From a virus (taxonomy: Duplodnaviria; Heunggongvirae; Uroviricota; Caudoviricetes), in the IMG/VR virus record IMGVR_UViG_3300003267_000376: 64,000 nt of DNA, one strand, 5' to 3'. Positions 1 through 51,452 of the stretch are shown here, piece after piece (positions within the stretch are counted from its first letter, which is position 1; each line of letters begins with the position of its first letter). The notes below the pieces were generated by a model, which did no database searches, was not told where the DNA came from, and saw nothing but the letters and a program-made list of their open reading frames with translations. A program made the translations under genes and the position numbers.

Positions 1-589
1 CCAGCATCTGGCGAGTTACCAATTCCACGACCTGCCGCTGATGGTCATTCCGCCGCAGGGTGGGATGGTGGCGGATCTGAACTACGCGGCCAAGGCGGTG
101 CTCACCGACCCGACCGTGACCTATCTGGGCTTCGTCGGGGACGATCATCGCTTCCGCAGCTCCGGCTGGGATCGTTCCTTCCTCGACACGCTCACCGCCA
201 ATGGTGGCGGTTTCGCTTACGGCAATGATCTGTTCTGGCCGCACGGCGAGATTCCAACCCAGATTTTCGTCAGCGCCCACATCGTGACGGCGCTGGGGTA
301 TTTCGCTCTTCCGCAATGCAAGCATCTCTACGTCGACAACGTATGGCGCGAACTGGGGGAAGGTGCCAACGCCCTGTTCTACTTCCCGAACATGGTGATC
401 GAACACCTGCATCCAGCAGCTGGCAAGGCCGAGTGGGACGAGCAGTACCGCTTGGTGAATAGCGAGGAACGCTATGCCGCTGATCGACAGGCGTTCGAGA
501 CATGGCTGGCCACCAAAGCACCGGAGGATATCGAGATTGTCCGAAGCGCCATTGCTCGCTCCATTCTCGTTAACCGAGATCCAAGCTAA
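1..589 (+). CDS. glycosyltransferase-like protein, 5'-truncated at the window edge
   Basis: The ORF is open to position 1. It carries a DDH/DxD-like motif (FVGDDHRF) and the aromatic/hydrophobic pattern of a GT-A fold. It sits in a cluster with other sugar-modifying enzymes. Confidence 0.4.
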   Translation, partial: QHLASYQFHDLPLMVIPPQGGMVADLNYAAKAVLTDPTVTYLGFVGDDHRFRSSGWDRSFLDTLTANGGGFAYGNDLFWPHGEIPTQIFVSAHIVTALGYFALPQCKHLYVDNVWRELGEGANALFYFPNMVIEHLHPAAGKAEWDEQYRLVNSEERYAADRQAFETWLATKAPEDIEIVRSAIARSILVNRDPS

Positions 590-1331
590 AGGCGGCCCCG
601 TCTTCCCGAACACGATCCCGTTTGAGCACATCACCTTCGCCATCGTGGTGTGGAATGACCAAACCCGGCTGCATCAGCTACTGGACTACGTGCGGCCCTA
701 TTTCTCCACCCTCGCCGTGGTGGTGCAGCAGTCCGATGACAGCACGATGCGGGTGGCCAAGGAAATCGCCGACATCATCGCGGTCGATGCGCATCGGGGC
801 TACGGCGACGCCAGTTTCGGGCCCTTGCTGCTGCCGATGATCAAGACCGAATGGACGTTCAAGGTCGATGTCGACGAGTGGCCTTCGGTGCAGTTGTTGG
901 AGTCGCTGTCCAGTGCGACCTGGAGCTGTGAGCAGGACCAGCGCTTTCATGACGGCGCCTGGATCCCATTCCGCTCGAGCGTCGACGACATTGAATACGA
1001 GGAGCAGCACGGGCATCTGCGCCTGTTCCGCACCTCGCTGGGGTGGCCCGCCACCCTTCACAGCCGACCGATGACTTCGCGAACGCTGTACTGGCATACC
1101 GGGCATATCCGGCACGACCGGACGCTCGACGAAATGATGCAGGACTACCTGCGCTATTGGAATGTGGGGCGTGGCAACGCTGGTTGGGACGCCCACAACA
1201 AACTGATGATGTACCACGCCTGTGTCGGCACTGCCGAAAAGAAGGGGTGGGACTACGTCAGATCGTTTGATTGGTGGCCTCGCGTGGAGGCCATCGCCTT
1301 TGAGGAGTCGAAACCATGGCTGCAGCCCTAG
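474..1331 (+). CDS. family-2-like glycosyltransferase (GT-A fold)
   Basis: The N-terminal beta-strand ITFAIVVWND and the motif QQSDDSTMRVAKEIADI match a GT2 signature. The start is uncertain: ATG 474 overlaps the upstream gene by 116 nt in another frame, with no in-frame ATG afterwards. Confidence 0.6.
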   Translation: MPLIDRRSRHGWPPKHRRISRLSEAPLLAPFSLTEIQAKGGPVFPNTIPFEHITFAIVVWNDQTRLHQLLDYVRPYFSTLAVVVQQSDDSTMRVAKEIADIIAVDAHRGYGDASFGPLLLPMIKTEWTFKVDVDEWPSVQLLESLSSATWSCEQDQRFHDGAWIPFRSSVDDIEYEEQHGHLRLFRTSLGWPATLHSRPMTSRTLYWHTGHIRHDRTLDEMMQDYLRYWNVGRGNAGWDAHNKLMMYHACVGTAEKKGWDYVRSFDWWPRVEAIAFEESKPWLQP

Positions 1332-1612
1332 CAATCACGCCTGCGTCCGGGTCGATCACGGCCACGGTGTCGGTGTGCCGTATCAACGTGACCGGCGCGG
1401 ATCCGAACAAGGTCGATGGTAGCGAGAACCGCTACAAGATCGTCGCCTCGTGCACCGGTGTGGATGACCTCGTGAGCCACGAATTCAACGTGAATGGTGG
1501 CAAGCACGAGTGGAACAACCTGATCTTCCCCGAGGCGGGGAGCTGGACCCTGGATCTGGTGGACCTGTCTGATGACAGCGTGGCCGCGACCGCGGCGGTG
1601 ACGGTCGCCTAA
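1316..1612 (+). CDS. hypothetical protein
   Basis: 98-aa ORF with a GAGGAG RBS upstream, co-oriented with its neighbours. Confidence 0.45.
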   Translation: MAAALAITPASGSITATVSVCRINVTGADPNKVDGSENRYKIVASCTGVDDLVSHEFNVNGGKHEWNNLIFPEAGSWTLDLVDLSDDSVAATAAVTVA

Positions 1613-2209
1613 TTGTCCAGCCGACGCCGTCTGTATCCCGAGCAGGCTGTGGATTACCGCAGCCTCGCTCGCCATAACTCGGAGTTCACCGACCATGTCG
1701 GGCGAACCCTCGCTACGGCGGCGGCCATCGCCTTCACCCAACCCAAGACGGTCTGCGACCCCGCAGTCGGAGACGGCTCGATCCTCGATGCGGCCTATGC
1801 TCTGCACCCCTTCCAGCGGGCCTACGTGTCCGATCTGTCTGAACCGAATATCGAGCGTATCCATGGCAAGACGTGGCCCAAACAGGCAGCGGTTAAGGAC
1901 ATTACTCAGGCCATCGTGGATCTGCCGGAAAAGGTCGACACCTTGGTCCTTACAGAAATCCTGGAGCACTTGGAAGATCCCGATAGCGTGGTCGCCCAAG
2001 CCCGCCGCAAGGCGGACGTCCTCATCGCCTCCTCCCCAGTAGAGGAGCCGGATGGCATCAGCAACCCTGAGCATCTGTGGAGTTTCGGGCGGGACGGGTA
2101 CCAAGACATGCTGCGTGAAGGAGGGTGGATCCCGTTTAGCTACACCGAGATCGGCTTCCCGGGGGATTGGCGCTTGTATTACACCTTTCAGATATGGGTA
2201 GCACGATGA
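1613..2209 (+). CDS. class I SAM-dependent methyltransferase
   Basis: Motif I is VCDPAVGDGSILD and the LVLTEILEHLEDP motif is typical of type 11/12 methyltransferases. The start is TTG 1613 (GTG 1646 is the alternative). Confidence 0.7.
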   Translation: MSSRRRLYPEQAVDYRSLARHNSEFTDHVGRTLATAAAIAFTQPKTVCDPAVGDGSILDAAYALHPFQRAYVSDLSEPNIERIHGKTWPKQAAVKDITQAIVDLPEKVDTLVLTEILEHLEDPDSVVAQARRKADVLIASSPVEEPDGISNPEHLWSFGRDGYQDMLREGGWIPFSYTEIGFPGDWRLYYTFQIWVAR

Positions 2210-2313
2210 AGAAAGACTTCTGGGAGCTCATGTCGCTGATCGGCATCCCGGGCCTGATGTTGATCGCGGTGCTCTTCACCCTGACCTGGTTCCTAGCGGA
2301 GCAGCTGAAGTGA
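2206..2313 (+). CDS. small membrane protein (35 aa)
   Basis: The ATGA overlap with the upstream stop indicates translational coupling. The product has a single TM helix (MKKDFWELMSLIGIPGLMLIAVLFTLTWFLAEQLK). It is below the size cutoff of the ORF track. Confidence 0.35.
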   Translation: MKKDFWELMSLIGIPGLMLIAVLFTLTWFLAEQLK

Positions 2314-2501
2314 GTGAATCCATTCTGGTGCGCGCCATCGCTGCCGTCCTGAGCGTGGTGATCTGCGCTGGCATCGTGATGGTGCTGTGGAATTTCGTCT
2401 TTAGTCGTGCGATTGGCATTGGCGCCTTGGATTACTGGGCCAGCCTCGCGTTGGTGCTCATCCTGCGCTTCTGCTCACCGCCACGCTGGGAGAACACGTG
2501 A
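2310..2501 (+). CDS. small membrane protein
   Basis: A GTG start overlaps the upstream stop. Two hydrophobic helices are predicted. Confidence 0.4.
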   Translation: MSESILVRAIAAVLSVVICAGIVMVLWNFVFSRAIGIGALDYWASLALVLILRFCSPPRWENT

Positions 2502-3427
2502 AGGTTCTGATTACCGGCGCCGCAGGTTTCCTCGGTCGCCACTACACCCGCTATCACCTCGAGCAGGGGGACGAGGTGACCGCGGTTGATGATCTCTCCA
2601 ATGCCACCGAGCCAGAGTTCCCGATTACAGTGGCCGATGCCGGAGCGTACCTCCTCGATGGAACCCCTCATTTTGACCGTGCTTACCATTTTGCTGCTCC
2701 AGTTGGTGGACGACTGAAGATCGATCTCGACCCACTGTTCAATGCCGACTCATTACGTCTGGATTCGATCTTCTTCCGCTGGGCAGTGAATAACACCAAG
2801 GTCGCGATCTACCCTTCCAGCTCGGCCGTGTATCCGGTCTATCTACAGCAGGCCGACAATTTCTACCCGTTGCGGGAGGAGATGTTTGTTCCACGTGAAG
2901 CGACTTGGGGCACTCCTGATCAAATGTATGGGTTTACCAAACTGGTTGGCGAATTTCTGGCCTGGAAAGCCAGCGTATATGGACTATCCACGCTCTGCCT
3001 ACGACCCTTCAGCGGATACGGCGAAGGTCAGTCCTTTGAGTATCCCGTCCCCAGCATCGTCCGCCGCGCGCTCCGCGGCGACAACCCCATTGATGTCTGG
3101 GGACCAGGTGACCAGAGCCGCGATTTCATCCATGTGGAGGATCTGGTACGAGGAACTATGGCGCGCCTCAGCGCGGGGGTTCGCGGATATAACGCACTGA
3201 ACCTCGGTTCCGGGATCCCCACCACCTTCACCCAGGTGGCGGTCATCGCCGCCGAGCTGGTGGGCTACTCACCGCAGATTCGGCCGCAGCCGGATAAGCC
3301 AGTGGGGGTCATGCATCGTTATTGCGACCCGACCGAGATGCTGCGCTACTACCGGCCGCAGATCACCCTCCCGCAAGGGTTGCAGCGCGTGCTGGAGGAG
3401 GTTGACCGTGCCCCGGATCGTGAATGA
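2498..3427 (+). CDS. NAD-dependent nucleotide-sugar epimerase/dehydratase (SDR family)
   Basis: ITGAAGFLG is a Rossmann motif and YGFTK is the catalytic YxxxK. The GTGA overlap gives start coupling. Confidence 0.85.
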   Translation: MKVLITGAAGFLGRHYTRYHLEQGDEVTAVDDLSNATEPEFPITVADAGAYLLDGTPHFDRAYHFAAPVGGRLKIDLDPLFNADSLRLDSIFFRWAVNNTKVAIYPSSSAVYPVYLQQADNFYPLREEMFVPREATWGTPDQMYGFTKLVGEFLAWKASVYGLSTLCLRPFSGYGEGQSFEYPVPSIVRRALRGDNPIDVWGPGDQSRDFIHVEDLVRGTMARLSAGVRGYNALNLGSGIPTTFTQVAVIAAELVGYSPQIRPQPDKPVGVMHRYCDPTEMLRYYRPQITLPQGLQRVLEEVDRAPDRE

Positions 3428-4238
3428 CGGGCCGGCGCCCGATCTGGCGGTCTACACCATGCACAGCGAGGGAACCGACATTGGGACCATCGCGATTCCG
3501 GTGCGGGATCAAGTCAACGCCGCCACCACCACCAGCTTGGTGATGACTGATTACAGCTTCCTGCAGCAGGGCCAAACGATCGAGCGACTGATTGTGCAGG
3601 GCAGCGTGCTGACGCTGCAGCGCAACGAATGCATCCAGCGCATGAAGGGCGACTGGCTGTTGTTTATCGACGACGACATGGTCTGGGACCCGGACATCAT
3701 TGGTCGCTTGATCGCGACGCGCGATGAGCATGATCTGGACATGCTCGGCGCGCTCTGCTATCGGCGCAGTGCTCCGCATCAGCCCACCTTGTTCATGCGC
3801 GAGGGGCCGACCTACGGGCAGTACAACTACCTCGAACGATGGGATGACGACATCATCGAGGTCGACGCCACGGGGATGGCCTTCATCGTGATCCACAAGC
3901 GTGTCTTCGAGCGTATCGCTGGGACGGAGATGCCGCCCTACGATGTGCGCGTCGGCATGAAACCGCCCAACTTCTTCCGTTGGGAAGGCGCGCTGGGTGA
4001 AGATCTCCGGTTCTGTCAGGACGCCCGGGCGGCTGGCTGCCGGATCTGGGTCGACACCCGCCTGGAAATTGGCCATGTCGGCGAACGCGTCATCCGTCGC
4101 CGCGACTTCCTTCTTGAACATGCGTTTCGCGACGAACTCGAGCTTGATCGCCGCCGGCGACTGAATGACCGAATGAACCTCACCACCCTCGAACCTGACG
4201 AGGCGCTGAAGGAGCTTATGCATGGAATGGCACGGTGA
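3402..4238 (+). CDS. glycosyltransferase (GT-A fold, DxD)
   Basis: LLFIDDDMVWDPD is a DxD motif and GEDLRFCQDARAAGCRIWVD is present. TTG start 3402 has a GGAGGAG RBS 5 nt upstream. Confidence 0.75.
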   Translation: MTVPRIVNDGPAPDLAVYTMHSEGTDIGTIAIPVRDQVNAATTTSLVMTDYSFLQQGQTIERLIVQGSVLTLQRNECIQRMKGDWLLFIDDDMVWDPDIIGRLIATRDEHDLDMLGALCYRRSAPHQPTLFMREGPTYGQYNYLERWDDDIIEVDATGMAFIVIHKRVFERIAGTEMPPYDVRVGMKPPNFFRWEGALGEDLRFCQDARAAGCRIWVDTRLEIGHVGERVIRRRDFLLEHAFRDELELDRRRRLNDRMNLTTLEPDEALKELMHGMAR

Positions 4239-4629
4239 CCTGCCGGTCTACCTGATGATCTTTGTTGAGAACGAGCGCATCACGGTCGACCTTGATGAGC
4301 GCGGCTGGAGCGAAAAATATGCGGCCTATATGCGCGCCCCCGGCTATTGGTTCTTGTTTGCGAAGGATCGTGAACGGCCCATCTTCGAGATGACCGTCAA
4401 GGAGGGCGAGCAGCCGTATTACACCCGTCGTACGGTCGGTATCGCAGGCAGTGGCGGATCGAATGACGTGTCCTTCTATGGCATCGGCAAGAAGCGCCTC
4501 GATGGGCATGTTGATCGGCTGTGGCTGGCCCCGGATGGCGCGATCTGCGCAGGTGACGATGTTGATCAATTCGGGGTGGAGTACGTCAAACGGCTCGGCC
4601 CCAAGCTCATCCCGGCCGAGGTGTCCTAA
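4222..4629 (+). CDS. hypothetical protein
   Basis: 135-aa ORF with an AAGGAG RBS and protein-like composition. Confidence 0.55.
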   Translation: MEWHGDLPVYLMIFVENERITVDLDERGWSEKYAAYMRAPGYWFLFAKDRERPIFEMTVKEGEQPYYTRRTVGIAGSGGSNDVSFYGIGKKRLDGHVDRLWLAPDGAICAGDDVDQFGVEYVKRLGPKLIPAEVS

Positions 4630-5399
4630 TGGCGCTGAAGTACCCCGTTGACAATGCTGTAGAAACCCAGGGTTGGGGCTCTTCGCCGCTGGCGGCCGAG
4701 CCGGCCATGTATTCCGATGGCAAGACCGCCTGGTGGAACCCGTATCCGGGAGCGAGCTTCTTCTGGCATTTCCATGCCGCGCTTGACATCGCTGCCCCCC
4801 AGGGCACTCCGATCTGGGCCTCCGAAGATGGGACGGTGATTGAGAGCTATTACGACAGCGTCAATGGCGGCGGCAATAAGGTCCGCATTCAGATTCGCCC
4901 CGGCATCAGCTACTGCTCGAACCACATGTTTAACCGCGCCGTCTCGGTCGGGCAGAAGGTGAAGCGTGGCCAACTCATCGGTCGCGTCGGCAGCACCGGC
5001 AACTCGACCGGTCCCCACAATCACTTCTGGGTGGGGATTGATGATGCGGTAGGCAGTCAGACCTGGCCGCGCCTGTTCAACCCCAAGCTGTTCTTCTACG
5101 GCGGGGCGCTGGCCAATGACGCCCGCATCCAGCCGCTGCAGCTGATCCCGTATGTCACGCTCAAGGGGCCGGGTATCAACATCCGCACCTCACCCGATCT
5201 CGATGTGGGCTCCTCGAATGTCTTCGCCACCAGTCAGGCCGATGGCATTTACCGCAACGGCAAGCGCCTCGGTCCGCTGTCCAAGCATTTCGAGTTCATG
5301 CGTAATGTAACGACCGATGACGGTCGCTTTGCCAAAGTTATCGCCTTTAATCGCAACCTGTACATCTACCGCGACTTGGTGGATTTCCATAAGTCGTAA
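4629..5399 (+). CDS. M23 family metallopeptidase (LytM domain) with C-terminal extension
   Basis: The motifs HAALDIAAPQGTPIWASEDGTV and GSTGNSTGPHNHF give the HxxxD...HxH zinc site. Confidence 0.85.
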   Translation: MALKYPVDNAVETQGWGSSPLAAEPAMYSDGKTAWWNPYPGASFFWHFHAALDIAAPQGTPIWASEDGTVIESYYDSVNGGGNKVRIQIRPGISYCSNHMFNRAVSVGQKVKRGQLIGRVGSTGNSTGPHNHFWVGIDDAVGSQTWPRLFNPKLFFYGGALANDARIQPLQLIPYVTLKGPGINIRTSPDLDVGSSNVFATSQADGIYRNGKRLGPLSKHFEFMRNVTTDDGRFAKVIAFNRNLYIYRDLVDFHKS

Positions 5400-5439
5400 G
5401 CGTTAGCCGCAATCCCATGCGGCGTTCGGAGCCAATCCC

Positions 5440-8400: not shown

Positions 8401-10863
8401 GGCGCAACGACCAACCGTGCGATGGATGGCACCGTTGGCGCTGCTCAGGCTACTTCTGGCTCAGTTACGCATGCATCCCAGGTCGTTGGCTTCTTGCGGC
8501 GCTTTGTCAGCGCTCCGATGGCAGCCCAAACAATTAGTGGAACGGTAACGCTTTCCGGCTCGGCCGCTGGCAACCCGTCTGGGTTCACAGGCCAAGAGAT
8601 GTATGTGGCGGTCTGGCGCCCATTAACCGGTTCGTTGGTGGGAACGCTCTACGCCACCCAACAGCTAGAGTGGCAATCTTCGCTTGGTTCGGGTCAAAAG
8701 GCTGGCACCTCTCCGGCACGCTCTCTCTCATCGTTAGCTGTCGACGACGGTGACATCGTGATAGTCGAGGTTTATGTCCGGACCACGTCATCGGCCAATG
8801 CCACGGCAACGATGTTCTATGACGGCACGACCGAGAACTCGACGAGCAGTAATGCGTCGTACGTTCTCTTCTCGAATCCGATTAGTTTCGGGGGCGGGAT
8901 TGCGGCAGACGCCGTCATCGTTCGCACCACGGCGGCCAGCTTCACAGCCAACGCGGTCATTCTCGCCACGCAGTCCGCGACCTTCACCGCTGACGCGGTG
9001 CTGCTGAAGACCCAAAGCGCTTCGTTTGCCGCCGACGCGGTCATCTTCAAGACACAGACAGCCACCTTCACCGCCGATGCGGTGATCAAGGCGACGATCA
9101 GTGCCAGCTTCACTGCTGACGCGGTCGTGCTCGCCACGATTACGTCGTCCTTCTCCGCCGACGCAGTCATCAAGAAAGAACAGACCGCATCGTTCAATGC
9201 CGATGCAATAGTGCTCGCCACCCAGACGAGCAGCTTCACCGGCGACGCGATCGTCCTGAGGACTCAGACGGCCTCGTTCACGGGCGATACGGTCATCCAG
9301 GCCACTATCACATCTGCCTTCAGCGCCGATGCCATCGTGCTGGCCACGATCAGCAGTGCCTTCAGCGCTGACGCCTGGATTCAGCCGACCTTCACCGCCG
9401 ACGCCATCCTGCTCAAGACGCAGGCCGGATCGTTCTCTGCCGATGCGACGCTCATGCCGTCGTTCACCACAGATGCGATCGTGCTCAAGACGCAGACCGC
9501 CGCGATCACGGCGGATGCGGTGCTGATGCCAAGTGTTACGGCTGACGCGATCGTGTTGGCCACGATCAGCGGTTCCCTAACGGCCGATGTCTTTATCGCT
9601 GGTGTGGGGGTCGCGGCCTTTAGCGCCGATGCGATTATCCAGGCTACGGTCACCGGTTCTTACAGCGCTGACGCGGTTGTTACGGCCACCGTAACAAGCG
9701 CGCTGACGGCTGATGCCGTGGTGCTGGCCACTACGGAAAAAATTCTTGGCGCAGACTCTATACTTTTGGCTACCGAGTCTGCTACAATCACCGCCGACGC
9801 GGTCCTGCTGCAGACGTGGACTACGTCATCCGCCGCCGATGCGGTGTTGCAAGCGACTGCGAGCGCAAGCTTCACCGTTGACGCGGTTCAACTGAAGACG
9901 ACCGAGGCTACATTCACTGCTGATGCGGTGATCCTCACCAGCCGAACGGACGGCTTCAGTGCAGACGGTGTACTGCTCTCCACGTACACCGCGACCACGA
10001 CGGCTGATGCGATCGTCCTTGCGACGATCGGAGGCAGCTGGACTGCGGACGCTGCCATTCAGCGCACACAGTCCGCTTCGTTCCCCGGCGACGCTGCCAT
10101 TCAGCGCACGACAGAAGCTGCCTTCACCGCTGACGCGGTGCTCAATGCGACCCAGAGCGCGAACTTCACCGGCAACGCGGTCATCGCTGCTGCTGGAGTC
10201 TCCACCGGTTCGTTTACTGCAGATGCCGTCCTCAAGTCGACGGGTGCAGCGAGTTTCGCCGCTGACGCCATTAAGCGTAGCACGTCGGTCAATTCCTTCG
10301 CCAGCGACGCCCATATCAAGGTCGTCCAGCAGGCTTCTCTGGCCGCTGACGCAATCCTGCGGGCTTCCCCGAGTGCCTCGCTGGCAGCTGCTGCGATCCT
10401 GCGCCGAACCACCGAAAGTGCGATCACCGCCGACAGCATCGTGCGAACCACGAGCTCGGCAACCTTTACCGCAGATGGGTGGTTGCGCAGGGTCGTAGCG
10501 ACCTCCTTCACGGCCGATGCCACGCTGTTTGCAGCCGGGGCGGCTTCGTTTAGCGCCGATGCCATCCTCGGGGTCGCGACCAGTGCGAGCTTCACCGCCG
10601 ATGCCCAGCTCACCGGACAGTCGGCGGCCAGCATTACGGTCGACGCCTTCATCCAGCCGTACTTCACGGCCCGCGCAATCCTCATTCACCCGACGCATCG
10701 GCGTCGGTTTAGGACCACAGTGACCGCGGCCATGCATGGTGCCGCCCTGGCAGGCGAGTTCCACGCCGCGGCCCTGGCCGCTTCTACCCATGGCGCTGGC
10801 CTCGCGGCTGGTGCGCACGCTGCGGCACTAGCCGCTGATATCAGCCGCACTGGGCTGAGCTAG
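5440..10863 (+). CDS. giant repeat-containing fibre/decoration-like virion protein (1807 aa)
   Basis: Long ORF with a GGAG RBS. The N-terminus is Thr/Ser/Gly-rich. About 60 copies of a 14-aa unit (consensus TQSASFTADAVLFK) occur in three arrays. Confidence 0.8.
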   Translation: MAITRTAKGTNTSKTSGTTLTLASVSMTAGDLLVVSLAYDDQTLDSVTWGSETLTLQTAVLGAGVRTRLAWKVIASTGTQTITATWTASLTAKALAASSYHCDVGGTTPAAGAEVNNTGTGTSASTANSSAIVGGTNSILAGVVGTEGPSGDTAGTWSTPNTNGQRAGTTGNPAASNVTVSEAYTLGPAVGSTPALSKTGMTSRDWGAELQAFYWSTTISSSFTANAIIKATTAGSFTADAAITLITFPITTNAVIKATASGTFTANAIIFRTVVGSPGPTVAYKTSVSTTGTQIDIPLGTPTVGDQLLIVIMSAQGSGLTWGSTPSGWVTQDSTNPTSTKPGAKVMWRTATSADINATVSVTISSSSPMMAVLVHLNRYQWFSGPATLITTLVDTTSSFSPPTFTPDPAEYRAAWWFTLKDNNESVTVLSGPFMAIGELSDGSWRAALHWVYPGVVGGRAVPFSPVGTLQWSTPADALSYGVVFGWTTSGFVTDAVLSKTQNANLTADAVIAATGGSWNASVLATVATGVDSMTVSSGSITVNPNRLIVIFTGVRANTQSGDPTIGGTLGLSFSKVDSTFGTGAYYGMFVALSGAGGTGTIVADYTATADITPGSETMFVLEIDGADISGTALGAIVQHNSNNAGSSTSSSVTLGAAVDTNNAVIAGTQVRGVNEDITPDTADSFTELQDQGNTSPQNQEETQWRAGGFTGTTVTASWTTSAGYRMIAAEIKKSGGSTVSGSFTANAVIKTTQSASLTADAVIKATQSASFTANAVLFKTQSLSFAADAIVLKTQSATFAADGVIMATISGFVTASAVLKATLSASFTADAIVFKTQAASCTADAVLFKAQAASFTGDAFLLAVRSGSFTADAVVFKTQSASFAADAVLFKTQSASLTADAVASKTQSATYTADAVLLRTQAGSFSADAIVLRTQSSTFAADAIILRTITSLTVVDKFYFHDAATSDSGTLPSGQLSSYTIDGSGTGATTNRAMDGTVGAAQATSGSVTHASQVVGFLRRFVSAPMAAQTISGTVTLSGSAAGNPSGFTGQEMYVAVWRPLTGSLVGTLYATQQLEWQSSLGSGQKAGTSPARSLSSLAVDDGDIVIVEVYVRTTSSANATATMFYDGTTENSTSSNASYVLFSNPISFGGGIAADAVIVRTTAASFTANAVILATQSATFTADAVLLKTQSASFAADAVIFKTQTATFTADAVIKATISASFTADAVVLATITSSFSADAVIKKEQTASFNADAIVLATQTSSFTGDAIVLRTQTASFTGDTVIQATITSAFSADAIVLATISSAFSADAWIQPTFTADAILLKTQAGSFSADATLMPSFTTDAIVLKTQTAAITADAVLMPSVTADAIVLATISGSLTADVFIAGVGVAAFSADAIIQATVTGSYSADAVVTATVTSALTADAVVLATTEKILGADSILLATESATITADAVLLQTWTTSSAADAVLQATASASFTVDAVQLKTTEATFTADAVILTSRTDGFSADGVLLSTYTATTTADAIVLATIGGSWTADAAIQRTQSASFPGDAAIQRTTEAAFTADAVLNATQSANFTGNAVIAAAGVSTGSFTADAVLKSTGAASFAADAIKRSTSVNSFASDAHIKVVQQASLAADAILRASPSASLAAAAILRRTTESAITADSIVRTTSSATFTADGWLRRVVATSFTADATLFAAGAASFSADAILGVATSASFTADAQLTGQSAASITVDAFIQPYFTARAILIHPTHRRRFRTTVTAAMHGAALAGEFHAAALAASTHGAGLAAGAHAAALAADISRTGLS
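6090..6260 (+). repeat. short array of the 14-aa (42-nt) coding repeat
   Basis: The reiterated unit is SFTANAIIKATTAGSFTADAAI... Confidence 0.6.
7650..8290 (+). repeat. array of ~15 imperfect 42-nt in-frame tandem repeats
   Basis: FTADAV is spaced every 14 aa in the translation. Confidence 0.85.
8900..10690 (+). repeat. array of ~45 imperfect 42-nt (some 30-nt) in-frame tandem repeats
   Basis: ADAV/ADAI recurs with 14-aa (occasionally 10-aa) spacing. Confidence 0.85.
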
Positions 10864-10872
10864 GAGATCGCC

Positions 10873-11190
10873 GTGTTGCGCTTCGTTACCGGCAATACCA
10901 AGCCATACCTCAACGGCACGATCTTCCTCGAGGAGGATCCCAGCACGCCGGTGAACCTCACCGGCTGCACGGTGCGAATCCAGATGCGGAAGGCCGATGA
11001 CCGCCGCTTCACGGTGAACCAGGAGGTCACCACCGTGACCGACGCGCTCAACGGCCAGGTGCAGTACCAGTGGGGCGAGAACGACCTCAATACCCCGGGG
11101 ATCTATCAGGTCCAGTTCGAGGTTACCTATCCCGATGACTCGACCCAGACCACCTCATCGCCGATTGATATTGAGGTGCGGCGCGCATGA
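10873..11190 (+). CDS. hypothetical protein
   Basis: A GTG start follows an AGGAG RBS. The 105-aa product is beta-rich. Confidence 0.5.
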   Translation: MLRFVTGNTKPYLNGTIFLEEDPSTPVNLTGCTVRIQMRKADDRRFTVNQEVTTVTDALNGQVQYQWGENDLNTPGIYQVQFEVTYPDDSTQTTSSPIDIEVRRA

Positions 11191-11369
11191 GCACGATTTA
11201 CACCATCAGCGCCCAGGATCTCGAACGGCTGAAGCTGTTCATGTATGAACTCAACCGCCTGCTAGAGGATATGGCTGTGGCCCAGAATCCCCATGCTGAA
11301 CGGTTAGAAGGGCTGCTCGAGCGGTTTACCGCCGATACCGTCCTTGACCGTGTGCCGCGTCATGGCTAA
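11187..11369 (+). CDS. small hypothetical protein (60 aa)
   Basis: The ATGA overlap gives start coupling. The C-terminus contains RFTADTVL, reminiscent of the repeat unit. Confidence 0.35.
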   Translation: MSTIYTISAQDLERLKLFMYELNRLLEDMAVAQNPHAERLEGLLERFTADTVLDRVPRHG

Positions 11370-12576
11370 TGCTGCGACGGCGCAGTGGGAGCGAGACGAG
11401 CACCTCTTCTTTGAAGGCAAGACCGATGCGGAGATCGTCGCGCTCACCAGCCGCAACCTCGAAGCTGTCGCTCGCAAGCGCCGCCGGTTGGTGGCAGCTG
11501 GCCGCCTGGTTGCGGACCCGCGAGCGGCGGTCGACTCAGCGAAGACGAAGATCCGGGAAGAATTCGCCCGCCGTCAACAGGCGACCCGCATTCGTGAACA
11601 AGCCAGCCTGGAAATGCTCAGCGACGCGCTCCGCTCCGCGATTCAGATCATCCCCTATCGCGAACCGGAGATAGCCCCAGCGGGGACGTACCACTTTGAT
11701 GCTGAGGAAGTAGTCCTGCTGCTTGGTGACCTGCAGGTCGGTGAGCTGGTAGACGAGACGGGGACCGGGGGCCTTGGGCGCTACAACCGGGACGTATTTC
11801 AGCTGCGTTCGGATGTGCTGATGCGCAAGGTGGAACGCATCGTCAAAGGCCACCAGTCGTACCAGCCCCTGCGCACACTCAACATCTTCGGCCTCGGCGA
11901 TTTCGTTGAGGGCATGATGATCTATCCCGGGCAGCTGTCGCACCTGGACATGGATCTGATGGAGCAGGTGTTCATCGGTGCGGACACGGTAGCCCGCATG
12001 GTCGTCTACTGGCTCGGCATGTTTGAGCACATCAACTTGTTCGGCGTACTGGGCAACCACGGTCGCCTTGGCCGTAAAGGGGAGCTCCCAACGACGGCCA
12101 ACATGGACTACCTGTTCCTCAAGTACATCGAACTGGTGTTGCGCGACTACATCACCGCTGGTCGGGTGACCTGCGAATTTCCGAAGACCTTCTTCCAGGT
12201 GGTAGAGCGCCAAGGGCATCGGTTCTTCTTGGTGCATGGCGACGATATTAAGGGATGGATGAGCCTGCCGTGGTATGGCGCGCAGCGCGCCGTACAGCGG
12301 TGGCAGGAGCTGATTCAAGAACGATTCGATTACTTCATCTTTGGACACCACCACACCACGGCGTCGTGGGAGTCCAATTCGAAAGAGGTCATCGCCAACG
12401 GCTCGTTCGTGGGGACGAACGAGCACAGTGCTAAGCACCTGAACGTCGGTGGTCGACCCTCGCAGATCATGTTTGGTCTGCATCAACAGGTCGGTATTAC
12501 GTGGCGATATCGCCTGATGTTGGATGAGGGGGAACCCGCGCGGTCAGTGACCGTCTACCGAGGTGCCCCCTCGTAA
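11362..12576 (+). CDS. calcineurin-like metallophosphoesterase
   Basis: The phosphoesterase motifs LLLGDLQVG, GNHGRLG, LVHGDD and FGHHHT are all present. An N-terminal ~100-aa extension is also present. ATG 11344 is an alternative start. Confidence 0.7.
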   Translation: MANAATAQWERDEHLFFEGKTDAEIVALTSRNLEAVARKRRRLVAAGRLVADPRAAVDSAKTKIREEFARRQQATRIREQASLEMLSDALRSAIQIIPYREPEIAPAGTYHFDAEEVVLLLGDLQVGELVDETGTGGLGRYNRDVFQLRSDVLMRKVERIVKGHQSYQPLRTLNIFGLGDFVEGMMIYPGQLSHLDMDLMEQVFIGADTVARMVVYWLGMFEHINLFGVLGNHGRLGRKGELPTTANMDYLFLKYIELVLRDYITAGRVTCEFPKTFFQVVERQGHRFFLVHGDDIKGWMSLPWYGAQRAVQRWQELIQERFDYFIFGHHHTTASWESNSKEVIANGSFVGTNEHSAKHLNVGGRPSQIMFGLHQQVGITWRYRLMLDEGEPARSVTVYRGAPS

Positions 12577-12595
12577 GCTCGGAAGGGGGCACCAG

Positions 12596-13078
12596 ATGAT
12601 CAAGATTCTGCGCTTCGCTATGGTGGCGACGCTCATCGTGGCTAGTGCCCTTACCCATGGTACGGATCGCGTCTGCGCGAGCAGCCCATTCTTGCTCTGG
12701 CCAGTAAGGGGCCCAATTAGTCAGTATTTCTCTACCGCCCATCAGGCGATTGACATCTACGTCCCAGTTGGGACGTCGGTCAAGGCAGCACAGTCCGGAA
12801 CGGTTGTCTGGGCTGGCTGGAAGCTCAATGGTGGCGGTAACGTCGTAGACATCAACCATGGGGCGGGGCAAGTGACCACCTACGATCACCTCTCCCAGGT
12901 GCTCGTGCGGGTCGGGCAGCGGGTGTCCATGGGCCAGCGCATCGCGCTGTCTGGGGCCACCGGCAATGTCACAGGACCCCATCTGCATTTCGGTTTTATG
13001 TGGGTCGGCCGTTGGGTTAACCCGTTGCCGTATCTGCATTATTCAATCCCGAACACGGCCCTGCCGTACTGTCCGTGA
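12596..13078 (+). CDS. secreted M23 family metallopeptidase
   Basis: A signal-like N-terminus (MIKILRFAMVATLIVASALTHG) precedes HQAIDIYVPVGTSV and GATGNVTGPHLHF. A GGAAGGGGG RBS is upstream. Confidence 0.8.
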   Translation: MIKILRFAMVATLIVASALTHGTDRVCASSPFLLWPVRGPISQYFSTAHQAIDIYVPVGTSVKAAQSGTVVWAGWKLNGGGNVVDINHGAGQVTTYDHLSQVLVRVGQRVSMGQRIALSGATGNVTGPHLHFGFMWVGRWVNPLPYLHYSIPNTALPYCP

Positions 13079-13084
13079 TTGATC

Positions 13085-13113
13085 AGGGGATGGGTCGCTG
13101 CCACCCATCCCCT
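13085..13113 (+). terminator. stem-loop (11-bp perfect stem AGGGGATGGGT/ACCCATCCCCT) just after the M23 gene
   Basis: The inverted repeat is visible directly in the sequence. There is no strong T-tract (high-GC genome). Confidence 0.5.
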
Positions 13114-13145
13114 CTTACCCATTAGCCAACCGGCGTGGAGGTGTA

Positions 13146-14414
13146 ATGACCAAGGTCTTGTGGATTGCAGATGGGGGCGCGCATACCGGGTTTGCTCGGG
13201 TCACGCATGCCATCGGCGATCGCCTCGTGGAGAAGTACGACTACGACATCCACTGCCTCGCGACCAACTACCAGGGCGATTACTACCCGACCAAGATCAA
13301 GCTCTATCGGCCGAACTCACTGGTGGGCACCGACGTGTTCGGCATGAGCCGCTTCATCGAGCTCCTCGCCAAGGTCGAGCCAGACGTGGTGGTGATGGTC
13401 AACGATCCGTTCATCATCATCAAGGAGCTGTTCGACAACAAGTGGGACACCGAGCGCGTCATGCTGCGCTATCGGCCGATCTTGACCTACATCCCGGTCG
13501 ACGGCCACAACCATCCGCCCGCCTGGCAGGTGCTGCAGAGCGTGACCAATGAGGTGGCCATGTCACGCTTCGGGCAGGCGTCGATGCCAGGCTCGCAGCT
13601 CGTCTATCACGGCGTCGATACCGACCTGTACTACCCCGTCAGTGCCAAGCGACCAATCAAACTGTCGAATGGCAATACCGTGACCACGAAGCGGGAGTGC
13701 AAGCAGCAGTTCGGTTATGACCCGGACAGCTTCCTCATCCTGCGAGTCGATCGTAACAGCGCACGCAAGGATTTCCCGGCCTCGTGGAAAGCGCTCGTCC
13801 CGGTCATGCAGCGGCATTCGGACATCATCGTCCACTTCCATTGCCAGGGCAAGAACGACATCTACGGCGTGGATATGAACGCGATGTTCAGTCGCGATCG
13901 GGAGACCGAGAAGCGCTTCTTCTTGCCGGATTTCCTCAATACCTTCATCGGCTGGAGTGACGAGGACCTGAACGCGCTCTACAACGCGGCAGACCTATTC
14001 ATCTCCAATAGCCGGGGTGAAGGCTTCGGCCTGACCATCGCCGAGGCCCTCGCCTGCAATGTACCGGTGATTGCCCAGAACGTCTCCGCCATCCCTGAGG
14101 TGGTGGGGCCGGGTGGCATTCTGATTGATCCCGTCCGCGAAATCACTGTGCCGTCAGGTCAAGACCTGTGGCTCAGCGATATCGGGGCGTTTAGTGAGGC
14201 CATTGAATCCCTCTATCTCTCTCGTCGGAAGCGGCGGGAATACGGGGATGCTGGCCGGGAGCATGTCACGTCGACCTTCAGCTGGGACGACGCTGCTGAC
14301 AAGTTCCATTACTTCATTGACGCACTCGCGAGAGGAACGGCGTCAGAAGGAGAAGTTGCAAATGGAGCGCAAGTTTCAGATCCTCAGCGGACTGCTGAAG
14401 GCGTACGAGTCTGA
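13146..14414 (+). CDS. GT4 (GT-B fold) glycosyltransferase
   Basis: SRGEGFGLTIAEALACNVPVIA matches the EX7E motif. A GGAGGTG RBS is upstream. Confidence 0.8.
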   Translation: MTKVLWIADGGAHTGFARVTHAIGDRLVEKYDYDIHCLATNYQGDYYPTKIKLYRPNSLVGTDVFGMSRFIELLAKVEPDVVVMVNDPFIIIKELFDNKWDTERVMLRYRPILTYIPVDGHNHPPAWQVLQSVTNEVAMSRFGQASMPGSQLVYHGVDTDLYYPVSAKRPIKLSNGNTVTTKRECKQQFGYDPDSFLILRVDRNSARKDFPASWKALVPVMQRHSDIIVHFHCQGKNDIYGVDMNAMFSRDRETEKRFFLPDFLNTFIGWSDEDLNALYNAADLFISNSRGEGFGLTIAEALACNVPVIAQNVSAIPEVVGPGGILIDPVREITVPSGQDLWLSDIGAFSEAIESLYLSRRKRREYGDAGREHVTSTFSWDDAADKFHYFIDALARGTASEGEVANGAQVSDPQRTAEGVRV

Positions 14415-16845: not shown

Positions 16846-16852
16846 GCCTCTG

Positions 16853-16886
16853 GGGGAGGGGACGAAGTCCTATTTGTCCCCTCCCC
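16853..16886 (+). terminator. stem-loop GGGGAGGGGAC/GTCCCCTCCCC (11-bp perfect stem) after the capsid gene
   Basis: Seen directly in the sequence, 8 nt after the TAA stop. Confidence 0.6.
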
Positions 16887-16910
16887 ACCTCCATATGTCT
16901 GGAGTTCGCC

Positions 16911-51251: not shown

Positions 51252-51452
51252 TTAGTTCTCCAGTGCCTTGGTGTGCTGGGCGGCGATGGCATCGGCCTCG
51301 GCCATAAAGGCCAAGAACTCCCGACGAGTCGGGGTGAAGCCGAATCGATCCTCGAACGCGGCGATCAGTTTGATCAGCAGCGTCTTGCCAGCGGGGTCGT
51401 AATCGATCTGGTCGAGGACCTCATCGGCCTCGGCCTCGTACTTACTGCTCAT
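51252..51452 (-). CDS. small hypothetical protein
   Basis: 66 aa from internal Met MSSKYEAE. Confidence 0.4.
   Translation of the reverse strand: MSSKYEAEADEVLDQIDYDPAGKTLLIKLIAAFEDRFGFTPTRREFLAFMAEADAIAAQHTKALEN

What the first reader, a model, noticed from the sequence alone, without database searches (positions are those of the whole stretch)
1..14414. Sugar-modification gene cluster embedded in the virion module
A partial GT, a GT2-like GT, a SAM methyltransferase, an SDR nucleotide-sugar epimerase/dehydratase and a DxD GT lie in one co-directional cluster at the start of the structural block. A GT4 enzyme is inserted directly before the prohead protease. Next to them lie exceptionally Ser/Thr-rich fibre proteins. 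Some actinobacteriophages glycosylate capsid and tail proteins with phage-encoded GTs, which is established knowledge for mycobacteriophages. The analogous inference here is O-glycosylation, perhaps with a methylated or epimerised sugar, of the fibre, capsid or tail proteins. Serotype-converting modification of the host envelope is an alternative.
Basis: inference. Interest (0 to 1): 0.65.

Follow-up and report, generated by a model that had tools for sequence, protein, structure and literature searches.

The report
Phage head-module sugar-transferase gene cluster
An uncultured soil phage of actinobacteria carries sugar-making and sugar-transferring enzymes between its portal and capsid-protease genes, most likely to coat its own particle proteins with sugars, as already shown for a few mycobacteriophages.

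Summary
All six enzymes are real: a GT-A with a GDD motif, a SunS/ThuS-like GT-A, a class I SAM methyltransferase, an epimerase-type SDR, a DxD GT2 and an EX7E GT4. They are co-directional with Ser/Thr-rich fibre genes.

A near-identical contig shows TerL and portal just upstream. The cluster therefore fills the portal-to-protease slot of the head module.

The GT4 is not an insertion. In 54 of 54 distinct related loci it sits directly 5' of the prohead protease and major capsid genes. The portal-to-GT4 interval is a variable cassette of other GTs, methyltransferases, nucleotidyl- and acyl-transferases, Ig-like proteins and fibres.

Mycobacteriophage Corndog keeps its methyltransferase and three GTs in the same slot. 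Those enzymes are reported to glycosylate capsid and tail tube, but they are not homologous to the enzymes here.

No GT has a membrane segment. No Gtr-like, integrase or DNA-hypermodification genes were found.

The best reading is cytoplasmic glycosylation of virion proteins (about 0.55). The acceptor is unproven. Modification of host wall polymers remains a live rival.

I rate it a new variant of a known kind, of moderate interest.

The parts
2..589 (+). C-terminal 195 aa of a 237-aa GT-A-type glycosyltransferase ('Pas34-like'). The gene starts upstream of the window.
   Evidence: phrog_14945 scores 1.3e-25. The full ORF is L006:3454-4167. The GDD motif is conserved. It is 33-38% identical to annotated GTs of Streptomyces and Arthrobacter phages. 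A profile hits PDB 9jma at 4.9e-5.
537..1331 (+). GT-A glycosyltransferase, 264 aa, closest to the protein/peptide GTs SunS, ThuS and GmaR. DVDE motif.
   Evidence: PF13704 is weak. The profile hits only SunS, ThuS and GmaR in the PDB. The AF2 model has pLDDT 94.3. The Foldseek top six are ThuS/SunS at E about 5e-10; the next matches are at 1e-6. About 150 homologues exist, mostly unannotated.
1316..1612 (+). 98-aa beta-rich small protein of unknown function (my reading of the sequence pattern: possibly an Ig-like sandwich, candidate decoration protein). It recurs near GT4 in relatives.
   Evidence: Homologues at 41-56% identity occur in L014-16, L025, L027, L028, L031, L037, L040, L045, L062, L077 and L082. 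It has no Pfam or PHROG hit.
1613..2209 (+). Class I SAM-dependent methyltransferase, 198 aa.
   Evidence: Pfam Methyltransf_11/12/23/25. Homologues in L058 and L090 occupy the same position, upstream of SDR-GT2.
2206..2501 (+). Two small overlapping ORFs (2206-2313, 35 aa, one hydrophobic helix; 2310-2501, 63 aa, two helices). They fill the apparent MT-SDR gap and are coupled by ATGA/GTGA overlaps.
   Evidence: Read from the sequence. They are not conserved in relatives. The RNA fold of the gap is unremarkable, z = -0.45.
2498..3427 (+). SDR nucleotide-sugar enzyme, most likely a 4-epimerase, 309 aa.
   Evidence: PF01370 scores 5.5e-30. phrog_540 scores 2e-40. The best PDB hit is MoeE5 (named in PDB only as 'MoeE5'; UDP-GlcA 4-epimerase from my own knowledge) at 3.8e-21, followed by UDP-Glc 4-epimerases. 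The motif is SSSAVY..YGFTK rather than the dehydratase TDE motif.
3402..4238 (+). GT2 (GT-A) glycosyltransferase with a DDD motif, 278 aa.
   Evidence: PF00535 and PF13641. phrog_1574, 12406 and 34859. It is 21-24% identical to the gp12-type GT of cluster J mycobacteriophages. It always lies upstream of hyp135 and the fibre.
4222..4629 (+). 135-aa protein of unknown function. It is the constant partner of the GT2 and of the repeat fibre.
   Evidence: Homologues occur between GT2_278 and the fibre in L022, L026, L032, L036, L043, L049, L058, L076, L089, L090 and L094. It has no family hit.
4629..5399 (+). M23 metallopeptidase, 256 aa, no signal peptide.
   Evidence: PF01551 scores 5e-22. PHROG endolysin, tape-measure and peptidase families also hit.
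5440..10863 (+). 1807-aa fibre-like protein: four globular domains plus about 65 copies of a strict 14-residue repeat (F-T-A-D-A-V-[IL]-x-[KA]-T-Q-S-A-S). It is 27% Ser+Thr.
   Evidence: Repeat parsing. Composition. No Pfam or PHROG hit. A tentative AF2 model shows one strand per repeat, pLDDT 73, with no PDB match. Homologues are all 'hypothetical'.
10873..11190 (+). 105-aa BppU_N / Rib-like Ig domain protein. In relatives it always follows the fibre and precedes GT4.
   Evidence: PF10651 scores 1.4e-10; PF08428 also hits. Synteny is shown.
11187..13078 (+). Three genes probably unrelated to sugar chemistry: a 60-aa ORF, a 410-aa metallophosphoesterase ('exonuclease' phrog_284) and a 171-aa M23 peptidase with an N-terminal hydrophobic segment (signal or anchor).
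   Evidence: phrog_284 scores 1.9e-46. PF12850 is weak. PF01551 scores 1.9e-30. The hydrophobic N-terminus has KD19 = 1.96. These genes are absent from most relatives.
13146..14414 (+). GT4 (retaining GT-B) glycosyltransferase, 422 aa. It is the conserved core of the system, directly 5' of the prohead protease.
   Evidence: PF00534 and PF13692. EX7E and many N-domain residues are invariant. The best PDB hit is chlorovirus B736L. In 54 of 54 relatives it is followed by protease and MCP. 896 homologues score E<=1e-10.
14362..16845 (+). Context: S78 prohead protease with scaffold-like C-terminus (14362-15546) and HK97-type major capsid protein (15547-16845).
   Evidence: PF04586. PHROG major head protein families.
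31478..35698 (+). Context: second fibre (1406 aa) in the tail module, carrying the same 14-residue repeats. It is 21% Ser+Thr.

Best explanation
This is a phage-encoded, cytoplasmic protein-glycosylation system for the virion. It sits in the late head-morphogenesis operon between portal and prohead protease.

Shown:
- Six soluble sugar enzymes are present, with catalytic motifs intact.
- A GT4 is fixed immediately 5' of protease and MCP across the whole lineage.
- The portal-to-GT4 interval is a swappable cassette.

Inferred:
- The retaining GT4 puts the first sugar on a virion protein shared by all members. Candidates are the capsid, the tail tube or a small 98-aa beta-rich protein that may decorate the head. 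This would happen while subunits are made and assembled.
- Sub-module A (GT-A, SunS/ThuS-like GT-A, 98-aa protein) extends or adds glycans on head proteins.
- Sub-module B (MT, SDR 4-epimerase, GT2, 135-aa partner) is inherited as a unit with the 14-residue-repeat Ser/Thr-rich fibre and its BppU_N/Rib-like partner. It would supply an epimerised sugar nucleotide, transfer it to the fibre or an existing glycan, and O-methylate it.
- Exchange of cassettes between lineages would diversify the surface glycan.
For: 1. All enzymes are verified.
2. The slot is established: TerL, portal, a 162-aa Ser/Thr-rich ORF and the GT-A lie on L006, which continues into the window.
3. Genes abut or overlap. No intergenic terminator-like site lies on the + strand between genes. 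GT4 overlaps the protease start.
4. GT4 is followed by protease and MCP in 54 of 54 distinct loci with MCP, and in 53 of 54 with a detectable protease. The same holds in four MAG contigs of Actinomycetota and two further contigs.
5. The N-terminal half of GT4 (in GT-B enzymes generally the acceptor-binding half; my own knowledge) is as conserved as the C-terminal donor-binding half. This implies a conserved acceptor.
6. Corndog has portal gp34, MT gp35, GT gp36-38, protease gp39 and MCP gp41. These enzymes are reported to modify capsid and tail tube (PMC11600133; PMC12363180).
7. Cluster J phages carry 5 GTs and an MT between MCP and the connector (PMC3706429).
8. Distant GT4 relatives also lie in or beside head modules: phiPsal1, S-CBS4, Mae-JY09, TJE1 and the low-GC contigs L101 and L106.
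9. The only solved relatives of the GT2-like enzyme are protein/peptide GTs. The best solved relative of GT4 is a chlorovirus GT.
10. No GT, SDR or MT has a membrane segment.
11. MT-SDR-GT2-hyp135-fibre-hyp105 recurs as a block.
12. Relatives' cassettes hold FkbM-type and other MTs, GT2s, a cytidylyltransferase and a hexapeptide acyltransferase.
Against: - There is no direct evidence of any glycan on any protein.
- No window enzyme shows BLASTP similarity to Che8 gp108-110 or Corndog gp35-38 (E>0.25). The parallel is positional and functional, not homologous.
- MCP and tail-tube C-termini show no Ser/Thr-rich acceptor tail.
- The slot is also a general plasticity zone. It holds two M23 peptidases, a metallophosphoesterase and two small membrane ORFs here, and QueC plus Vut_1 in L032.
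- Most characterised GT4 enzymes act on non-protein acceptors.
- GT-A structural neighbours also include the wall-teichoic-acid GTs TarS and TarP. The GT-A profile weakly hits a lipid-linked-oligosaccharide GT.
- GT4 identity and MCP identity to the window do not correlate (rho 0.19). GT4 alleles therefore move between lineages.
Confidence: 0.55

Rival explanations
1. Host-envelope modification. The soluble GTs, epimerase and MT decorate a host cell-wall glycopolymer (teichoic acid, arabinogalactan-like or rhamnose polymer) at the cytoplasmic face, as the prophage enzyme TarP does. This would mask the receptor, either to block superinfection or to stop progeny adsorbing to debris. Linkage of sub-module B to the fibre would then reflect matched receptor specificity.
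For: - The GT-A fold neighbours include TarS and TarP at E about 3e-6.
- The GT-A profile weakly matches a lipid-linked-oligosaccharide GT.
- GT4 families in NCBIfam are mostly wall, lipid or small-molecule GTs.
- JGI's automatic name is 'glycosyltransferase involved in cell wall biosynthesis'.
- Cluster J authors left 'viral or host' targets open.
- The GT2/SDR/MT block co-inherits with a putative receptor-binding fibre.
Against: - No flippase, GtrA/GtrB/GT-C or other polytopic membrane protein is present. The only membrane ORFs are 35 and 63 aa and are not conserved.
- No integrase or repressor was found among the larger ORFs.
- GT4 is fixed in a late head operon and translationally coupled to the protease in 54 of 54 loci. 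That is unlike a moron.
- The one experimentally studied cluster in the same slot (Corndog) is reported to modify virions.
Confidence: 0.2
2. There is no single pathway. The portal-to-protease interval is a recombination hot spot that collects unrelated accessory genes. The GTs, MT and SDR would then serve several different targets, and some may be decaying. Only the GT4 would have a conserved role, still unknown.
For: - The interval varies from about 3 to 14 kb and holds peptidases, a phosphoesterase and small membrane ORFs.
- In relatives it also holds QueC/Vut_1 and many unknown ORFs.
- GT4 and MCP identities are uncorrelated.
Against: - Sugar-related genes dominate the identifiable content of the slot in every complete example.
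- Ordered sub-modules recur across lineages with 41-60% protein identity.
- Catalytic motifs are intact.
Confidence: 0.15
3. DNA glycosylation. The GTs hypermodify phage DNA bases to evade restriction.
For: - Phage GTs are known to do this (reviewed in PMC12619734).
- The GT-A family's best PHROG is labelled 'DNA methyltransferase' (phrog_2675).
- Its Streptomyces-phage relatives lie near ThyX and RNR genes.
- L032 carries QueC in the same slot.
Against: - No hydroxymethylase or thymidylate-synthase-like enzyme, DNA polymerase or other base-modification enzyme was found among the larger ORFs of the replication arm. Only an ordinary DNA methyltransferase is present.
- The genes are in the late structural operon, not the nucleotide-metabolism module.
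- The phrog_2675 label traces to one record's annotation (H41).
Confidence: 0.03

Closest known systems
Mycobacteriophage Corndog (cluster O) gp35-gp38: an O-methyltransferase plus three glycosyltransferases that modify capsid and tail tube (Freeman et al. 2023, as cited in PMC11600133 and PMC12363180)
   Same: It occupies the same genomic slot: TerL, portal, MT, GT, GT, GT, prohead protease, MCP, with a GT directly 5' of the protease. It is a siphovirus with an actinobacterial host. It combines an MT with several soluble GTs.
   Different: There is no detectable sequence similarity to any window enzyme. Corndog's enzymes are small GT-A-type proteins. It has no GT4, no SDR epimerase, no fibre genes and no peptidases in the slot. 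The Corndog cluster is about 2.7 kb against about 14.4 kb here.
Mycobacteriophage Che8 (cluster F1) gp108-gp110
   Same: These are phage-encoded GTs, one fused to an MT domain, reported to glycosylate capsid and tail tube.
   Different: They lie at the right genome end, far from the structural genes. They are not homologous. The only link is a faint shared PHROG: phrog_14775 scores 5.8e-4 for the window GT2 and 1e-36 for gp108.
Cluster J mycobacteriophages (Optimus gp12-gp21, Thibault and others)
   Same: Eight to ten genes, including five GTs and an MT, interrupt the virion operon (PMC3706429). The window GT2 is a distant homologue of the gp12-type GT at 21-24% identity.
   Different: That cluster lies between MCP and the head-tail connector, not between portal and protease. 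It includes a Ser/Thr kinase and a zinc protease. Its function was left open by the authors.
Chlorovirus capsid glycosylation machinery and the GT4 B736L of PBCV NY-2A (PDB 3oy2/3oy7)
   Same: B736L is the best solved-structure match of the window GT4 (E 3.6e-14 over residues 191-398). From my own knowledge, chloroviruses glycosylate their major capsid protein with virus-encoded cytoplasmic GTs.
   Different: It is a eukaryotic giant virus, and the acceptor of B736L is itself unknown. The similarity is mainly in the donor-binding half.
SunS/ThuS glycocin S-/O-glycosyltransferases and the Listeria flagellin O-GlcNAc transferase GmaR
   Same: They are the only PDB sequence-profile hits and the top six structural hits of the 264-aa GT-A. 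By my own knowledge all of them glycosylate peptides or proteins; the PDB entries name SunS and ThuS 'glycosin S-glycosyltransferase'.
   Different: The window protein is only the GT-A domain plus a short helical tail. From my own knowledge, SunS and ThuS carry extra C-terminal substrate-binding domains; they are certainly much longer chains (333-421 residues). TMq is 0.52-0.59 and identity 13-16%.
Phage serotype converters (Gtr clusters) and the prophage WTA transferase TarP
   Same: These are phage-encoded GTs that act on sugars. TarP is a soluble GT-A and appears among the weaker fold matches.
   Different: Gtr systems need the GtrA flippase, membrane-anchored GtrB and a polytopic GT, sit next to the integrase and belong to temperate phages. 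None of these features was found here.

Membership tests
Actinobacteriophage virion-glycosylation systems (Che8 / Corndog / Myrna type) | Phage-encoded soluble glycosyltransferase(s), usually with a methyltransferase | tested here: met
   There are four GTs, one MT and one SDR with intact motifs. None has a transmembrane segment.
Actinobacteriophage virion-glycosylation systems (Che8 / Corndog / Myrna type) | Sequence homology to the characterised enzymes (Che8 gp108-110, Corndog gp35-38) | tested here: not met
   BLASTP of all window proteins against these seven proteins gives nothing below E 0.25. The PHROG families differ, apart from a faint phrog_14775 hit.
Actinobacteriophage virion-glycosylation systems (Che8 / Corndog / Myrna type) | Location in the virion operon (Corndog: between portal and prohead protease) | tested here: met
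   On L006 plus the window, portal is followed by the cluster and then by protease and MCP. Corndog has portal gp34, MT, three GTs and protease gp39.
Actinobacteriophage virion-glycosylation systems (Che8 / Corndog / Myrna type) | Glycans covalently attached to capsid and tail-tube subunits | not testable with these tools
   This needs mass spectrometry or glycostaining of virions. The C-termini of MCP and tube carry no informative motif.
Actinobacteriophage virion-glycosylation systems (Che8 / Corndog / Myrna type) | Actinobacterial host | tested here: inconclusive
   GC is 61%. Relatives are binned in MAGs of Acidimicrobiales, Lysinibacter, Actinomycetes and Solirubrobacterales. GT homologues occur in Streptomyces, Arthrobacter and Mycobacterium phages. 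Binning of phage contigs is not proof of host.
CAZy GT4 / Pfam Glycos_transf_1 (retaining GT-B) | GT-B C-terminal domain signature with an EX7E motif | tested here: met
   PF00534 scores 2e-16 and PF13692 1e-15. E292 and E300 are invariant in 24 sequences. PDB hits are all GT4 enzymes.
SunS/ThuS/GmaR-type protein glycosyltransferases (GT2) | GT-A catalytic domain most similar to these enzymes | tested here: met
   The profile hits only SunS, ThuS and GmaR. The Foldseek top six are ThuS/SunS, about 1000-fold better in E-value than the next family.
SunS/ThuS/GmaR-type protein glycosyltransferases (GT2) | Additional C-terminal substrate-binding / TPR-like domain (feature stated from my own knowledge of these enzymes) | tested here: not met
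   The protein is 245-264 aa, a GT-A domain plus three or four short helices. The matched SunS/ThuS chains are 333-421 residues and TMt is only 0.33-0.43.
Gtr-type serotype-conversion clusters | GtrA-like flippase, membrane-anchored GtrB and a polytopic serotype-specific GT, next to integrase/att | tested here: not met
   The maximum 19-residue hydropathy of every GT is below 1.6. The only membrane ORFs are 35 and 63 aa. No integrase was found among the larger ORFs. About 7 kb of the roughly 75-kb genome was not seen.
Phage DNA-glycosylation systems | Base hydroxymethylase or another base-modifying enzyme together with GTs in the nucleotide-metabolism module | tested here: not met
   The replication arm encodes an AAA ATPase, ParB-like protein, Cas4-like exonuclease, Erf, SSB, RadC and a DNA MTase only. 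Small ORFs were not all scanned.
Extended SDR nucleotide-sugar epimerases | GxxGxxG Rossmann motif, a Ser...YxxxK catalytic triad, and no dehydratase Asp-Glu pair | tested here: met
   The motifs GAAGFLG, SSSAVY and YGFTK are present. PF01370 hits. The top PDB hits are MoeE5 and UDP-Glc 4-epimerases. All NCBIfam equivalogs score far below their cut-offs, so the substrate is unknown.

The most novel reading that the evidence does not exclude
A retaining GT4 is a core head-morphogenesis gene of a large, globally distributed and entirely uncultured lineage of roughly 75-kb soil actinophages. It would work with hypervariable, horizontally exchanged glycan-tailoring cassettes. One cassette is dedicated to a previously undescribed 14-residue beta-strand-repeat fibre. 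Together they would give the particles a serotype-like, diversifying glycan coat. Related GT4s in the head modules of cyanophages and low-GC phages would make capsid glycosylation a widespread, overlooked feature of tailed phages, not a mycobacteriophage curiosity.
Probability: 0.3. Interest if true: 0.65.

Novelty: new variant of a known kind. Interest (0 to 1): 0.45.

Why it matters
Virion glycosylation by phage enzymes has been demonstrated only in a few cultured mycobacteriophages.

Here a non-homologous enzyme set occupies the same genomic slot as in Corndog. It comprises a GT4, a SunS-like GT-A, a GT2, an epimerase and a methyltransferase. Its GT4 is fixed next to the protease and capsid genes in every one of 54 related environmental loci.

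If the function holds, three things follow:
- Capsid or fibre glycosylation has arisen or been re-tooled repeatedly.
- It is a core trait of an abundant soil phage lineage.
- It comes with swappable cassettes that could diversify the particle surface, affecting stability, adsorption and recognition.

The finding also gives concrete, clonable enzyme-substrate candidates for testing.

Tried and rejected
- **Cultured relatives.** Megablast of 1-14500 and tblastn of the MCP against 50,697 cultured phage records found nothing. There is no cultured relative to lean on.
- **Exact-protein look-up.** The 285-aa ORF failed because the ATG at 474 is not the called start. The MCP look-up worked.
- **Promoter/terminator scan of 1-17000.** There were fewer promoter-like sites than in shuffles. 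All + strand terminator-like sites lie inside the fibre ORF. The scan was uninformative, apart from showing no obvious operon break.
- **The 288-nt MT-SDR gap.** The RNA fold has z = -0.45. The gap is two small membrane ORFs, not an RNA element.
- **AF2 of the repeat region.** The model is only moderate (pLDDT 73; two of five models above 70) and has no PDB match at E<=1e-3. The fold is treated as tentative.
- **Homology to Che8/Corndog enzymes.** None was found.
- **Literature.** The Freeman et al. 2023 paper is not held in the library. Its findings are cited through papers that quote it.
- **Acceptor tails.** I looked for Ser/Thr-rich C-terminal tails on MCP and tube and found none. Corndog's own C-termini are not conspicuously Ser/Thr-rich either, so this test is not discriminating.
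- **DNA hypermodification and Gtr-type serotype conversion.** Both were considered and set aside.

Full report
**What the window is**

The window has about 61% GC throughout. It carries a siphovirus structural arm on the + strand from 1 to about 35.7 kb. In order this holds an S78 protease/scaffold, the MCP, an adaptor, neck proteins, a tail terminator-like protein, the tube, a 2072-aa tape measure, a 911-aa protein with a C-terminal M23 domain, and fibres. A replication and accessory arm lies on the - strand.

The window has no near relative among 50,697 cultured phage records, either by DNA or by MCP protein. Identical genes occur on soil-metagenome contigs (JGI 3300003321, Logan SRR1926130), the longest of 75 kb.

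Related contigs have been binned into MAGs of Acidimicrobiales, Lysinibacter, Actinomycetes and Solirubrobacterales. The host is therefore probably an actinobacterium, though binning is not proof.

**Checking the observation**

- **Partial ORF at 2-589.** This is the C-terminal 195 aa of a 237-aa GT-A-type transferase. It matches phrog_14945 at 1.3e-25. The full ORF is on L006. It keeps a conserved N-terminal PxR and a GDD motif. It is 33-38% identical to annotated GTs of Streptomyces and Arthrobacter phages.
- **'GT2-like' ORF.** This had the weakest support, with PF13704 below its cut-off.
  - A profile of four homologues hits only SunS, ThuS and GmaR in the PDB.
  - An AlphaFold model built on 30 homologues has pLDDT 94.3. 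It is a GT-A fold.
  - Its six best PDB matches are ThuS and SunS at E about 5e-10. Polysaccharide and teichoic-acid GT-As follow at about 1e-6. Viral GT-A models also match.
  - Its start is probably TTG 537, not ATG 474.
- **Methyltransferase, SDR, GT2 and GT4.** All four have ordinary Pfam support and intact motifs. All NCBIfam hits are far below the equivalog cut-offs, so substrates are unknown.
- **SDR subtype.** The protein has the epimerase-type SSSAVY..YxxxK signature. Its best solved relatives are MoeE5 (a UDP-GlcA 4-epimerase, from my own knowledge) and UDP-glucose 4-epimerases.
- **GT4 relatives.** Its best solved relative is the chlorovirus GT B736L.
- **Fibre proteins.** They are Ser/Thr-rich as described: 27% and 21%.

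**Where the cluster sits**

Contig L006 is 99.955% identical to window 1-4456 and extends 3.6 kb further upstream. It encodes the large terminase, a 447-aa portal, a 162-aa protein with 28% Ser+Thr, and then the complete first GT.

The 14.4-kb region therefore lies inside the head module, between portal and prohead protease. Genes abut or overlap (ATGA and GTGA overlaps; GT4 overlaps the protease start by about 53 nt). No intergenic terminator-like site interrupts the array.

The one apparent gap, 2209-2498, is filled by two small hydrophobic ORFs of 35 and 63 aa.

**Comparative anatomy**

I recovered relatives in three ways:
- with the MCP;
- with a GT4 alignment;
- by exact-protein look-ups.

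After de-duplication, 54 loci have a GT4 at 39% identity or more and at least 1.5 kb of downstream DNA. All 54 have an MCP homologue 1.1-1.7 kb downstream. In 53 of the 54 a detectable S78 protease lies in between. The GT4 is thus a fixed component of the head module of this lineage, not an insertion.

The N-terminal half of GT4 is as conserved as its C-terminal, donor-binding half, and EX7E is invariant. In GT-B enzymes the N-terminal half generally binds the acceptor (my own knowledge). Identity of GT4 and of MCP to the window proteins is not correlated (rho 0.19). GT4 alleles have therefore moved between lineages while keeping their position.

Upstream, the portal-to-GT4 interval is a cassette of 3 to 14 kb. 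Two recurring sub-modules stand out.

- **Sub-module A:** portal, (unknown ORF), SunS-like GT-A, (unknown ORF), 98-aa beta-rich protein, GT4. It occurs in the fibre-less relatives L015, L016, L028, L037, L040 and L077.
- **Sub-module B:** MT, SDR, GT2, 135-aa protein, (0-2 ORFs), 14-residue-repeat fibre, BppU_N/Rib-like 105-aa protein, GT4.
  - It is complete in the window, L058 and L090.
  - It runs from SDR or GT2 onward in L022, L032, L036, L043, L049, L076, L089 and L094.

Other relatives place different sugar-tailoring genes in the same slot. These include FkbM-type and class I methyltransferases, GT2s, GT-As, a cytidylyltransferase and a hexapeptide acyltransferase. The window combines sub-modules A and B.

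**Comparison with what is known**

Mycobacteriophages Che8, Corndog and Myrna glycosylate capsid and tail-tube subunits with their own GTs. This is the work of Freeman et al. 2023, quoted in PMC11600133, PMC12619734 and PMC12363180.

I fetched the Corndog record and typed its genes. The order is TerL gp32, HNH gp33, portal gp34, methyltransferase gp35, GTs gp36, gp37 and gp38, protease gp39, gp40, MCP gp41. That is the same slot as here, with a GT directly before the protease. PMC12363180 names gp38 as essential for capsid glycosylation.

The enzymes, however, are not homologous. BLASTP of every window protein against Che8 gp108-110 and Corndog gp35-38 gives nothing below E 0.25.

Cluster J mycobacteriophages carry five GTs and a methyltransferase between MCP and the connector. 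Their describers left open whether the targets are viral or host. The window GT2 is a distant relative of one of those GTs.

The nearest GT4s in cultured phages, at 24-27% identity, also lie in or beside head modules:
- phiPsal1: MCP, GT4, MT, GT2, neck;
- S-CBS4: portal, an unknown ORF, GT4, an unknown ORF, MT;
- Mae-JY09: MCP, an unknown ORF, GT4;
- TJE1: a nucleotidyltransferase, kinase, epimerase, MT and GT block before TerL.

S-EIVl is the exception. Two low-GC environmental phages with GT4s at 29-30% identity show the same association.

**Mechanism**

Three things are shown:
- a set of soluble enzymes with intact catalytic motifs;
- late-operon placement;
- strict positional conservation of GT4.

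The rest is inferred. GT4 primes a virion protein common to all members. The cassette enzymes extend and tailor the glycan, by epimerisation and O-methylation. Sub-module B serves the repeat fibre with which it is co-inherited.

The SunS/ThuS/GmaR affinity of one GT-A and the chlorovirus affinity of GT4 point towards protein substrates but do not prove it.

**Rivals**

- **Classical Gtr-type serotype conversion** is not supported. No GT has a membrane segment, there is no flippase or polytopic GT, and no integrase was found.
- **TarP-like cytoplasmic modification of a wall polymer** cannot be excluded. It would also explain the linkage of sub-module B to a receptor-binding fibre.
- **DNA glycosylation** is unlikely. 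The replication arm holds no base-modifying enzyme except an ordinary DNA methyltransferase.
- **A general plasticity zone.** The slot also holds peptidases, a phosphoesterase and small membrane ORFs here, and QueC/Vut_1 in L032. Not every gene in it need belong to one pathway.

**Verdict**

It is a new variant of a known kind: the principle and the slot match Corndog, but the parts differ, and the system is fixed in a large uncultured lineage.

Interest is moderate. A specialist would not be very surprised. Still, the conserved GT4-protease-MCP linkage and the cassette structure make clear, testable predictions.

Noticed in passing
window 5440-10863, 31073-31465 and 31478-35698: A strict 14-residue repeat (F-T-A-D-A-V-[IL]-x-[KA]-T-Q-S-A-S) occurs about 65 times in the 1807-aa protein. 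It also occurs in the 1406-aa tail fibre and the 130-aa protein before it. It has no Pfam or PHROG family, and about 100 'hypothetical' homologues carry varied terminal domains. A tentative AF2 model (pLDDT 73) gives one 11-residue strand plus a 3-residue turn per repeat. No PDB match reaches E<=1e-3.
   Followed up: partly
window 18801-19259 (C-terminus): The tail terminator-like 152-aa protein ends in a single copy of the fibre repeat (...SFAADAVLL). Six of the 19 homologues examined (L007, L008, L010, L019, L020, L021) carry such a 14-17-residue C-terminal extension; the rest stop just before it. It might be a docking strand for the repeat fibres.
   Followed up: partly
window 4629-5399, 12563-13078 and 26799-29534: There are three M23 metallopeptidase domains in one phage: a cytoplasmic 256-aa protein, a 171-aa protein with an N-terminal hydrophobic segment (signal or anchor), and the C-terminus of a 911-aa tail protein. 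No canonical endolysin/holin cassette was identified.
   Followed up: no
window 2206-2313 and 2310-2501: Two small hydrophobic ORFs (35 aa with one helix, 63 aa with two) are translationally coupled between the methyltransferase and the SDR. They are absent from relatives. They could be holin-like or membrane-targeting factors.
   Followed up: partly
window 11344-12576; L005 183-339 against window 11511-11566: A 410-aa metallophosphoesterase (phrog_284 'exonuclease') sits in the head module. A strain variant from the same metagenome has a 157-nt segment where the window has 56 nt, inside the N-terminal part of this gene. The gene was called as 335 aa there.
   Followed up: no
L032 5454-6619: A relative carries QueC and a Vut_1 queuosine-precursor transporter inside the portal-to-GT4 cassette, between two large fibre-like ORFs.
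   Followed up: no
L013 8575-9455; L012 5279-5826: Some relatives have two tandem tail-tube paralogues, at 52-55% and 73-79% identity to the window tube. The same oddity is reported for Rhodococcus cluster CB phages (PMC13313380).
   Followed up: no
L014 6660-13690: One relative has a 7-kb insertion between MCP and the head-tail adaptor. It encodes six ORFs, one with a GH16 glycoside-hydrolase domain; the rest are unknown.
   Followed up: partly
L101 5995-9349; L106 128-7164: GT4 relatives at 29-30% identity occur in low-GC (34-45%) environmental phages, again next to portal or MCP-like genes. This suggests a broader link between this GT4 clade and head modules.
   Followed up: partly
P0189, P0210, P0212, P0215, P0217 (homologues of window 537-1331): Some homologues of the SunS-like GT-A are fused to an extra domain of about 150 aa, giving 409-421 aa in total. 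One carries PF13469 (Pfam's Sulfotransfer_3, by my own knowledge).
   Followed up: no
window 38848-39729, 47723-48691, 49193-49726 and 51442-52392 (- strand): The accessory arm encodes an SPFH/Band 7 protein, a ParB-like protein, a RadC-like JAB protein and a protein with an antitoxin-like motif. No integrase or DNA polymerase was seen among the larger ORFs.
   Followed up: no
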